From the NCBI RefSeq assembly GCF_058153355.1, contig NZ_CM177019.1: DNA of 64,000 nucleotides. One strand, 5' to 3'. Numbering within the stretch: position 1 is the stretch's first letter; every line of letters starts with the position of its first letter. A model generated the notes under the pieces. That model saw nothing but the letters and a program-made list of their open reading frames with translations, made no database searches and was not told where the DNA came from. Position numbers and translations under genes: made by a program. Shown here one piece after another: positions 53,906 to 54,378 of the stretch.

Positions 53906-54378
53906 TGCATCTCCAGAAATCATGAAGGAAACGTCGTTCATATCGGTAGTGTTAATTACAGATATCACGCCCTTTAATTTGGAAATAAAACTTTAATCAC
54001 CAATATTGAAAATGTCACACGCAGATAAATCCAACTTTCAATATTGTTAAGTTCCTCACCAATATTGAAAACACGGCGTAGCAAAAAGAAATTTTCAATA
54101 TTGTTTTATGGATCACCAATATTGAAAGTCAGATGCTATTTTTTCACTCAAACAGAATCATATTTAATTGATTAAGAAAGATTATTTTCATAAAAACCCC
54201 CTGTTTTTACCCGATATAAAAATGTGACAATAATCACAGAACGCAGCCTATTGAATACCCATTATGAGTTAGCCATTAACGCGTCCACGAGGTTAATAAT
54301 AATTATATTAAATGTTAACAAAAAATAAAACAAACGGGAACGCAAAATAAATATTCGTTTTCACAGTGGAATTAACTC
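53906..54378. promoter_or_regulatory. Divergent fixABCX / caiTABCDE control region with repeated palindromic CAATATTG-containing sites (CaiF/CRP/FNR-controlled region)
   Basis: Five copies of CAATATTG in alternating contexts CACCAATATTGAAA (about 53998, 54057, 54114) and TTTCAATATTGTT (about 54046, 54093); AT-rich. Confidence 0.7.

What the first reader, a model, noticed from the sequence alone, without database searches (positions are those of the whole stretch)
53990..54130. Five copies of the palindromic octamer CAATATTG in the divergent fix/cai control region
The cores occur in two alternating extended contexts, CACCAATATTGAAA (three times) and TTTCAATATTGTT (twice), within about 130 bp of AT-rich DNA between fixA and caiT. 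Established knowledge places CaiF, CRP and FNR control here; the number and regular alternation of sites is more than a single inverted-repeat pair would need and suggests cooperative or bidirectional occupancy.
Basis: partly seen in the sequence, partly recalled or inferred. Interest (0 to 1): 0.35.

Follow-up and report, generated by a model that had tools for sequence, protein, structure and literature searches.

The report
CaiF activator sites plus conserved orphan
The five repeats are real: four are the already published binding sites of the carnitine activator CaiF, and the fifth is an unpaired copy inside the fix promoter that is even better conserved across bacterial genera and probably also works.

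Summary

Four copies are already known. Copies 2+3 (54036-54070) and 4+5 (54093-54127) each match the published CaiF operator TTTCAATATTG-N13-CAATATTGAAA (sites F1 and F2). This block is base-for-base identical to E. coli.

Copy 1 (TCACCAATATTGAAA, 53997-54011) has no partner. Even so, it is the best-conserved element of the region. It sits about 96 bp from the fixA ATG and 38 bp from the first pair in Escherichia, Salmonella, Citrobacter, Yokenella, Proteus and Providencia, while the number of full pairs varies from 1 to 3.

Copy 1 lies inside the predicted fix core promoter, in the 17-bp spacer of GTGACA-N17-TAAAGT. CaiF's homologue GrlA is reported to activate LEE1 P1 from inside the promoter spacer. 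I therefore infer that one CaiF protomer docks here.

Verdict: a known system, correctly spotted. The orphan half-site is a modest, testable addition that I could not find described in any text I could read. Interest is low to moderate.

The parts
53997..54011 (+). Orphan CaiF-type half-site (copy 1): TCAC flank plus CAATATTGAAA, with no N13 partner. It is at -14 to -28 of the fix start site if that start is at 53983.
   Evidence: identical 15-mer to the R half-sites of both pairs. (not part of any full site, even with 3 mismatches). (conserved about 96 bp from the fixA ATG in Escherichia through Providencia; mean 1.85 bits per position, the highest in the region).
54036..54070 (.). CaiF operator, fix-proximal pair (copies 2+3): TTTCAATATTG-N13-CAATATTGAAA. 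Its centre is about -70 from the fix start.
   Evidence: 0 mismatches to the published site pattern. (published pattern). (identical to K-12-like E. coli).
54093..54127 (.). CaiF operator, cai-proximal pair (copies 4+5). Its centre is about -127 from the fix start and -162 from the cai start.
   Evidence: 0 mismatches. family D1 (a 51-nt direct repeat of the first pair at 57-bp spacing, 75% identity, consistent with a tandem duplication).
54045..54060 (.). Weak CRP-like site nested in the centre of the fix-proximal pair (TGTTAagttccTCACC, 8 of 10 consensus positions).
   Evidence: 2 mismatches; not significant alone, since 14 such matches occur in the window against 25.7 expected. Its position equals 'CRP site 2 at -69.5 of fix' as I remember it from the Buchet 1998 abstract. 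(multiple CRP molecules act in this spacer).
54102..54117 (.). Second weak CRP-like site nested in the cai-proximal pair (TGTTTtatggaTCACC, 7 of 10).
   Evidence: Read from the sequence. Its position equals 'CRP site 3 at -126.5 of fix' as I remember it from the Buchet 1998 abstract.
54223..54238 (.). Perfect CRP site TGTGAcaataaTCACA, class II position (-41.5) for the cai promoter. It implies a cai start near 54272.
   Evidence: 0 mismatches, the only perfect match in the window. (half-sites conserved across Escherichia).
53990..54018 (-). Predicted fix core promoter, register A: -35 GTGACA (54018-54013), 17-bp spacer TTTTCAATATTGGTGAT containing the orphan core, -10 TAAAGT (53995-53990). The implied start is near 53983.
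   Evidence: the only minus-strand sigma-70-like match in the region, 9 of 12. (this register is conserved in the Escherichia/Salmonella/Citrobacter/Phytobacter clade only). The implied start is 289 bp from the cai start, which matches my recollection of Buchet 1998.
53983..53991 (.). Conserved block AAATAAAAC next to the orphan. On the minus strand it reads GTTTTATTT. It may be the -10 (TATTTT) of an alternative or ancestral fix promoter, register B, in which the orphan overlaps the -35.
   Evidence: nearly invariant from Escherichia to Providencia. (TTCAAT-N17-TATTTT scores best in the distant genera).
54136..54222 (.). Hypervariable spacer between the CaiF array and the strong CRP site. Its length is kept but its sequence is free.
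61645..62040 (-). caiF, the cognate activator (131 aa).
   Evidence: ORF. (Pfam PF07180 CaiF_GrlA, 28.3 bits against a cut-off of 25).
53135..53905 (-). fixA, first gene of fixABCX.
54379..55893 (+). caiT, first gene of caiTABCDE.

Best explanation
The five octamers are the cores of five CaiF recognition half-sites in the shared control region of the divergent fixABCX and caiTABCDE operons. Four of them form the two published CaiF operators (F1 and F2), each TTTCAATATTG-N13-CAATATTGAAA. In each operator the two cores are 21 bp apart, which is two helical turns and so the same face of the DNA. A weak CRP-like site (TGTnA-N6-TCAC) is nested in the centre of each operator. A perfect CRP site at -41.5 serves the cai promoter. 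The fifth copy is a solitary R-type half-site (TCACCAATATTGAAA) inside the fix core promoter. I infer that it is a real promoter-proximal docking site for one CaiF protomer. That protomer, helped by CaiF and CRP bound at the upstream operator(s), would assist RNA polymerase at a weak promoter. The precedent is CaiF's homologue GrlA, reported to act from within the spacer of the LEE1 P1 promoter. Shown here: the sequence anatomy, the match to the published operator, conservation across genera, CaiF/GrlA homology, and the predicted promoter position. Taken from the literature: CaiF binds F1 and F2. Inferred: CaiF occupies the orphan, and what that occupancy does.
For: (1) The published operator pattern is quoted. 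The window has exactly two perfect matches, and the block 53949-54135 is identical to K-12-like E. coli and to O157:H7.
(2) The orphan 15-mer is identical to the R half-sites of both operators.
(3) The orphan keeps its position (95-96 bp from the fixA ATG, 38 bp from the first L half-site) in most genera from Escherichia to Proteus (P. rettgeri/P. vermicola 98-99, P. heimbachae 129, C. sedlakii 82). The number of full pairs varies: 1 in Yokenella, Trabulsiella, Pluralibacter and Atlantibacter; 2 in Escherichia, Salmonella and Citrobacter; 3 in Proteus.
(4) The orphan has the highest information content in the region: 1.85 bits per position, against 1.33-1.52 for the paired half-sites and 0.63 for the adjacent spacer. 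It stays perfect in Providencia, where the L half-sites have decayed.
(5) Across 11 further Escherichia alleles, 0 of 20 variable positions fall in the 67 motif positions (P = 1.4e-5; alignment).
(6) The only sigma-70-like match on the fix strand is GTGACA-N17-TAAAGT, with the orphan core in its spacer. In distant genera the alternative TTCAAT-N17-TATTTT puts the orphan over the -35. In either register the orphan is inside the core promoter.
(7) CaiF is encoded in the window and belongs to Pfam CaiF_GrlA. CaiF and GrlA align over the N-terminal HTH region (28% over 61 aa, E = 4e-8). GrlA keeps CaiF Y11, T46 and Y47, three residues whose alanine substitution cut reporter output.
(8) GrlA is reported to activate LEE1 P1 by binding within the -35/-10 spacer (also 45). 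With both promoters aligned from their -10 hexamers, positions -25 to -18 read CAATATTG in fix and TGATAATG in LEE1 P1, 5 of 8 identical (LEE1 sequence verified).
(9) From my memory of the Buchet 1998 abstract: the start sites are 289 bp apart, and CRP sites lie at -41.5 of cai and at -69.5 and -126.5 of fix. All four numbers fit this sequence exactly if fix starts at 53983. The same abstract reports that a 50-bp segment overlapping the fix start is needed for cai transcription and was thought to transmit the CaiF signal. The orphan would probably lie within or at the edge of such a segment; I do not know its exact end points.
Against: The accessible accounts of the published footprints name only two CaiF sites, F1 and F2, so a solitary half-site may bind too weakly to be seen. 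I could not read the primary papers, so the start sites, CRP positions and deletion result rest on my memory plus the fit to the sequence. An activator centred near -23 would lie under RNA polymerase. The MerR/GrlA precedent uses an over-long spacer (18-20 bp), whereas the fix spacer in register A is an optimal 17 bp. The -10 TAAAGT is not conserved outside the Escherichia/Salmonella/Citrobacter/Phytobacter clade, so the promoter register is uncertain. The 5 of 8 similarity to the LEE1 spacer is weak evidence in AT-rich DNA. The nested CRP-like matches are not statistically significant on their own.
Confidence: 0.7

Rival explanations
1. The orphan is conserved because it is core-promoter DNA for fix, or a leftover of the tandem duplication that built the array. 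In this view CaiF acts only through the two full operators.
For: Accessible accounts of the footprints name only F1 and F2. The array shows duplication history (family D1: 51 nt, 75%, 57-bp spacing). In register B the -35 hexamer TTCAAT is part of the half-site. The neighbouring block AAATAAAAC is equally conserved and is not CaiF-like, so promoter constraints do operate here.
Against: A 3-of-6 match to the -35 consensus would not constrain 15 consecutive bases to stay identical to the R half-sites of the bound operators from Escherichia to Providencia. One-pair genera already carry the orphan, so it is not a by-product of the Escherichia duplication. In register A the sequence lies in a spacer, where sequence is normally free. 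The recalled 1998 deletion result implicates this neighbourhood in CaiF signalling to cai.
Confidence: 0.17
2. The orphan is a negative element. CaiF (unliganded or in excess, perhaps as a dimer using the degenerate sequence 13 bp further towards fixA) sits over the -10 and start region of fix and limits transcription.
For: Its position between -18 and -36 is typical of repressor sites. A dimer placed as in F1/F2 would cover 53977-54011, which includes the -10 and the start (sequence).
Against: The partner position matches the half-site at only 4 of 11 bases in Escherichia and 6 of 11 in Providencia, about chance for AT-rich DNA (my count). CaiF is described only as an activator of both operons. 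The recalled deletion analysis says this segment is needed for cai expression, not inhibitory.
Confidence: 0.09
3. The octamers are recognised by a protein other than CaiF (CRP, FNR, H-NS, IHF or similar), or they are a generic repeat or RNA element.
For: The region is AT-rich (30.5% G+C). H-NS, CRP and FNR effects on cai/fix are reported. The TCAC flank of R half-sites doubles as a CRP half-site.
Against: The motif equals the published CaiF operator. It matches neither TGTGA-N6-TCACA nor TTGAT-N4-ATCAA. No other extended copies exist in 64 kb, and the other four octamers in the window are isolated. Rfam finds nothing. Going by the predicted and recalled start sites, the two pairs lie upstream of both starts; the orphan lies upstream of the fix start but downstream of the -35. 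FNR acts through caiF.
Confidence: 0.03

Closest known systems
CaiF operators F1 and F2 of the E. coli cai-fix intergenic region (Buchet et al. 1999, as quoted in PMC12083890 and PMC3680233)
   Same: The sequence pattern is identical (TTTCAATATTG-N13-CAATATTGAAA, twice). The location between fixA and caiT is the same, caiF is nearby, and the block is base-for-base identical to E. coli K-12-like and O157:H7 genomes.
   Different: The published description, as far as I could read it, counts two sites and so four half-sites. The fifth, unpaired half-site in the fix core promoter is not mentioned in any text I could access.
GrlA at the LEE1 P1 promoter of EHEC/EPEC (Islam et al. 2011, as summarised in PMC10877973 and PMC4856446)
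   Same: The regulator is homologous (Pfam CaiF_GrlA; 28% identity over the HTH region). Its target lies between the -35 and -10 hexamers. The two spacers share ATA(T/A)TG at -23 to -18.
   Different: LEE1 P1 has a suboptimal 18-bp spacer, and shortening it bypasses GrlA (my recollection of the Islam 2011 abstract). The predicted fix spacer is 17 bp. GrlA has no reported upstream N13 operators. CaiF binding at the orphan is inferred, not shown.
MerR-family activators (operator in the promoter spacer)
   Same: The site is centred near -23, within the spacer of the target promoter.
   Different: CaiF is not a MerR-family protein. MerR operators are full dyads in 19-20 bp spacers, whereas this is a single 11-15 bp half-site in a 17-bp spacer.
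CRP-CytR type composite nucleoprotein complexes (my own knowledge)
   Same: A specific regulator and CRP share overlapping or interdigitated sites in one control region and act together.
   Different: In the CytR system the specific regulator sits between two CRP dimers and represses. Here a weak CRP-like site sits between two CaiF half-sites and the outcome is activation.

Membership tests
CaiF operator (F1/F2 type) | Two 11-bp half-sites, TTTCAATATTG and CAATATTGAAA, inverted and separated by 13 bp | tested here: met
   54036-54070 and 54093-54127, 0 mismatches, none expected by chance. This covers copies 2-5.
CaiF operator (F1/F2 type) | The same feature, applied to copy 1 (54001) | tested here: not met
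   One search finds no third site even with 3 mismatches. The partner position 53977-53987 matches 4 of 11 bases. Copy 1 is a half-site only.
CaiF operator (F1/F2 type) | Located in the divergent fixA-caiT control region, with caiF encoded at the locus | tested here: met
   (flanking genes). (caiF at 61645-62040, Pfam CaiF_GrlA).
CaiF operator (F1/F2 type) | Protected by purified CaiF in footprinting or gel shift | not testable with these tools
   Reported in the literature for the E. coli sequence, which is identical to the window over this block. Not reported, as far as I could read, for copy 1.
CaiF operator (F1/F2 type) | Conserved in orthologous control regions of species with a cai-fix locus | tested here: met
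   present in Enterobacteriaceae and Morganellaceae; absent from the Shewanella, Campylobacter and Ferrimonas loci.
GrlA/MerR-like spacer-binding activator target | Regulator homologous to GrlA | tested here: met
GrlA/MerR-like spacer-binding activator target | Site lies between the -35 and -10 hexamers of the activated promoter | tested here: inconclusive
   Met for the predicted promoter GTGACA-N17-TAAAGT, which agrees with the start site I recall from Buchet 1998. In distant genera the better-scoring register puts the site over the -35 instead. I had no start-site data to read.
GrlA/MerR-like spacer-binding activator target | Suboptimal (18-20 bp) spacer that the activator compensates for | tested here: not met
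   The spacer is 17 bp in both candidate registers.
CRP site | Match to TGTGA-N6-TCACA | tested here: met
   54223-54238 is a perfect match.
CRP site | The same match, for the sites nested in the CaiF pairs | tested here: inconclusive
   8 of 10 and 7 of 10 positions match. Matches at this level are no more frequent than chance in the window. Support comes only from recalled footprint positions and the statement that several CRP molecules act here.

The most novel reading that the evidence does not exclude
The unpaired fifth half-site, not F1/F2, is the contact through which CaiF switches on the fix promoter. One CaiF protomer would bind inside the core promoter (in the spacer in the E. coli clade, over the -35 in other genera), as GrlA does at LEE1 P1. 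This would make action from within the core promoter a shared mechanism of the CaiF/GrlA family. F1/F2 with their nested CRP sites would then serve as upstream loading and cooperativity sites, and would link the fix promoter to cai activation 289 bp away.
Probability: 0.3. Interest if true: 0.45.

Novelty: already known. Interest (0 to 1): 0.22.

Why it matters
As it stands, the finding re-discovers the CaiF operators of a textbook E. coli locus, so it adds little. The useful by-product is comparative. A fifth, unpaired CaiF half-site inside the fix core promoter is the most conserved element of the region across two families of Enterobacterales, while the number of full operators changes from one to three. 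If CaiF binds it, two things would follow. It would explain how a small activator bound at -70 and -127 drives a weak promoter. It would also tie CaiF mechanistically to the virulence regulator GrlA. The practical relevance is that carnitine biosensors are built on this fix promoter (PMC12083890), so knowing which of the five sites matter would guide promoter engineering.

Tried and rejected
- **Primary papers.** I could not obtain Buchet 1998, Buchet 1999 or Islam 2011 by PMC id, DOI or PubMed id. Start sites, CRP site positions and the 50-bp deletion result are therefore from my memory, checked only against the sequence geometry.
- **Genome-wide CaiF binding data.** Searches for ChIP-exo, DAP-seq or SELEX data on CaiF found nothing. 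The biosensor and review papers add no promoter detail.
- **A degenerate partner for copy 1.** The position 13 bp away matches 4-6 of 11 bases, about chance. Rejected.
- **CRP or FNR reading of the octamers.** No match to either consensus. The nested CRP-like sites are not significant alone.
- **RNA element.** No Rfam match at E <= 1.
- **Mobile or generic repeat.** No further extended copies in 64 kb.
- **Possible artefact in the window.** The 54120-54270 patch matches no complete E. coli genome above 85%. This was explained as a spacer that is hypervariable in every Escherichia lineage. The cai genes are 98.8% E. coli.
- **caiF inside the long fixA-caiT spacers of Edwardsiella, Hafnia and others.** tblastn found nothing in the fetched loci.

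Full report
**Observation**

The sequence at 53990-54130 holds five exact copies of the palindromic octamer CAATATTG, starting at 54001, 54039, 54060, 54096 and 54117. The whole 64-kb window has nine copies, against 1.31 expected from dinucleotide-preserving shuffles. Five within 124 bp has a Poisson probability of about 9e-16.

(A/C)TCACCAATATTGAAA occurs three times, at 59- and 57-bp spacing. TTTCAATATTGTT occurs twice. The two contexts are the same 11-mer in opposite orientations, so the pattern is R, L, R, L, R (R = CAATATTGAAA, L = TTTCAATATTG).

The array is AT-rich (30.5% G+C against 52.7% for the window). It lies in the 473-bp spacer between fixA (minus strand, ATG at 53905) and caiT (plus strand, ATG at 54379).

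**What four of the five are**

Two papers I could read, both citing Buchet et al. [quoted passage not shown] Each site is 5'-TTTCAATATTG-N13-CAATATTGAAA-3' (PMC12083890; PMC3680233).

The window holds exactly two perfect matches to this 35-bp pattern: 54036-54070 (copies 2+3) and 54093-54127 (copies 4+5). None is expected by chance, and no third match appears even with three mismatches allowed.

The block 53949-54135 is identical to a K-12-like E. coli, and 53970-54135 is identical to O157:H7 genomes. The cai genes are up to 98.8% identical to complete E. coli genomes. The published footprints therefore apply directly to this sequence.

caiF is encoded 7 kb away at 61645-62040 and matches Pfam CaiF_GrlA above its cut-off.

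The two pairs sit within a 51-nt direct repeat (75% identity, 57-bp spacing), which points to a tandem duplication.

In each pair the two cores are 21 bp apart, which is two helical turns. The 13-bp spacer plus two bases of each core reads TGTTA-N6-TCACC or TGTTT-N6-TCACC, a weak CRP-like site (for the first; the sequence itself for the second). Matches at that level are not significant on their own. A CRP SELEX paper does say that several CRP molecules act in this spacer. A perfect CRP site lies at 54223-54238.

**The fifth copy**

Copy 1 (TCACCAATATTGAAA, 53997-54011) is identical over 15 bases to the R half-sites of both pairs, but it has no partner. The position 13 bp away matches the half-site at only 4 of 11 bases.

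To see whether copy 1 matters, I collected 80 CaiT loci from one genome per species. I anchored each divergent fixA-caiT spacer on the fixA ATG and mapped half-sites with up to two mismatches.

- **Position.** The orphan R half-site is present about 96 bp from the fixA ATG and 38 bp from the first L half-site in Escherichia, Salmonella, Citrobacter, Phytobacter, Pseudocitrobacter, Yokenella, Trabulsiella, Pluralibacter, Proteus and Providencia.
- **Number of full pairs.** This differs by genus: one in Yokenella, Trabulsiella, Pluralibacter and Atlantibacter; two in Escherichia, Salmonella and Citrobacter; three in Proteus, at a strict 59-bp period.
- **Degree of conservation.** In an ungapped alignment of 44 species anchored on the orphan, its 15-mer has the highest information content of the region: 1.85 bits per position. 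The paired half-sites score 1.33-1.52 and the adjacent spacer 0.63. Those paired-site values are somewhat depressed, because spacing differs by 1-2 bp in a few species.
- **Providencia.** There the L half-sites have decayed while the orphan stays perfect.
- **Within Escherichia.** Across 11 further alleles, none of the 20 variable positions in 53970-54135 falls in the 67 motif positions (P = 1.4e-5).

The orphan is therefore under selection at least as strong as that on the footprinted sites.

**Where the orphan sits**

The only sigma-70-like match on the fix strand is -35 GTGACA (54018-54013), a 17-bp spacer TTTTCAATATTGGTGAT, and -10 TAAAGT (53995-53990). The orphan core lies in that spacer.

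This promoter implies a start near 53983. The perfect CRP site at -41.5 implies a cai start near 54272, which is 289 bp away.

These figures agree with what I remember of the Buchet 1998 abstract: starts 289 bp apart, and CRP sites at -41.5 of cai and at -69.5 and -126.5 of fix. The last two fall exactly on the centres of the two CaiF pairs (54052.5 and 54109.5). I could not read that paper, so this is recollection cross-checked by geometry.

The same abstract, as I recall it, reports that a 50-bp segment overlapping the fix start is required for cai transcription and was thought to carry the CaiF signal. The orphan would probably lie within or at the edge of such a segment, though I do not know its exact end points.

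Across genera, register A (GTGACA-N17-TAnnGT) holds only in the Escherichia/Salmonella/Citrobacter/Phytobacter clade. In the distant genera a second register, TTCAAT-N17-TATTTT, scores better and places the orphan over the -35. Its -10 falls in the conserved block AAATAAAAC (53983-53991), which is nearly invariant from Escherichia to Providencia. In either register the orphan lies inside the fix core promoter, between about -18 and -36.

**How it probably works**

CaiF's homologue GrlA is described as activating the LEE1 P1 promoter by binding within the 18-bp spacer between -35 and -10, in a MerR-like way (PMC10877973; PMC4856446).

CaiF and GrlA align over the N-terminal helix-turn-helix region (28% over 61 residues, E = 4e-8). 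The homology is noted in the literature. GrlA keeps CaiF residues Y11, T46 and Y47, whose alanine substitutions cut reporter output.

I verified the LEE1 P1 sequence in an O157:H7 genome: TTGACA-TTTAATGATAATGTATTT-TACACA. With both promoters aligned from their -10 hexamers, positions -25 to -18 read CAATATTG in fix and TGATAATG in LEE1. Five of eight are identical, including G-18, whose substitution alters GrlA dependence. In AT-rich DNA this is suggestive only.

GrlA is held as a single subunit in the GrlR2-GrlA complex. The CaiF modelling paper assigns one CaiF to each 11-bp half-site. A single protomer on a solitary half-site is therefore plausible.

My best account is that the region carries five CaiF half-sites. 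F1 and F2, with nested weak CRP sites, act as upstream operators. The orphan is a promoter-proximal docking site for one CaiF protomer that helps RNA polymerase at the weak fix promoter and perhaps completes the complex needed for cai.

My confidence by step:
- F1/F2 assignment: about 0.95.
- The orphan is a functional CaiF target: about 0.65.
- A GrlA-like mechanism specifically: about 0.3.

**Rivals**

(a) The orphan is conserved as promoter DNA, or is a duplication relic. Against this, 15 consecutive bases stay identical to the bound half-sites over a long evolutionary distance, and one-pair genera already carry the orphan.

(b) The orphan is a negative site. Nothing reported supports repression, and the partner half-site is absent.

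(c) The octamers are bound by another protein, or are an RNA or mobile element. The motif equals the published CaiF operator, no other extended copies exist in the window, and Rfam finds nothing.

**Comparison, novelty and score**

The feature as reported is already known: it is the CaiF operator array of the E. coli cai-fix control region.
- The functional unit is the N13-spaced 11-mer pair, not the octamer.
- FNR acts chiefly through caiF.
- There is an unpaired fifth site.

The conserved orphan half-site, its place in the core promoter and the parallel with GrlA are a modest addition. I could not find them in any accessible text, but the unread primary papers may mention them. Interest is 0.22.

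Noticed in passing
window 54136-54222: The spacer between the CaiF array and the perfect CRP site is hypervariable. Every Escherichia lineage has its own sequence while the length is kept. No complete E. coli genome is more than 85% identical to window 54120-54270, although the flanks are identical to E. coli and the cai genes are 98.8% E. coli.
   Followed up: partly
L027-L034, L046 (Proteus) at IGR positions 96-283; L022, L024, L025, L065 (one-pair genera): The number of full CaiF pairs changes between genera. It is one in Yokenella, Trabulsiella, Pluralibacter and Atlantibacter, two in Escherichia, Salmonella and Citrobacter, and three in Proteus at a strict 59-bp period. This suggests expansion by tandem duplication of a 57-59 bp unit.
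   Followed up: partly
L030, L036, L038, L039 (Providencia), IGR positions 96-260: In Providencia the L half-sites have decayed (for example TTTTCATGTTG) while R-type TCACCAATATTG sites persist at a 59-bp period (P. heimbachae R129, R188, R247). The R-type site with its TCAC flank may be the primary determinant.
   Followed up: no
window 53983-53991: The block AAATAAAAC next to the orphan is nearly invariant from Escherichia to Providencia. It is not CaiF-like. It may be the -10 (TATTTT on the minus strand) of an alternative or ancestral fix promoter.
   Followed up: partly
L023, L044, L045, L047-L053 (Leminorella, Limnobaculum, Edwardsiella, Budvicia, Serratia, Hafnia); L056-L081: More distant Enterobacterales have 650-770 bp fixA-caiT spacers with mostly one (up to three) isolated CaiF-type half-sites and no N13 pair. 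The Shewanella, Campylobacter, Ferrimonas and other loci have essentially none. No caiF-like ORF was found in the fetched flanks.
   Followed up: no
window 55100-55310 (caiT): Parts of caiT in the window carry substitutions shared with E. albertii rather than E. coli (for example alignment columns 140-150 and 295-303). This suggests a mosaic or recombinant cai region.
   Followed up: no
window 61645-62145, minus strand: The caiF reading frame stays open upstream to a GTG, giving 166 aa, beyond the ATG start of the 131-aa CaiF.
   Followed up: no
window 1702, 7995, 23725, 44080: Four further CAATATTG octamers occur elsewhere in the window. They are isolated and lack the extended CaiF half-site context; the best, at 7992-8006, has 3 mismatches to the 15-mer. 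They look like chance occurrences.
   Followed up: yes
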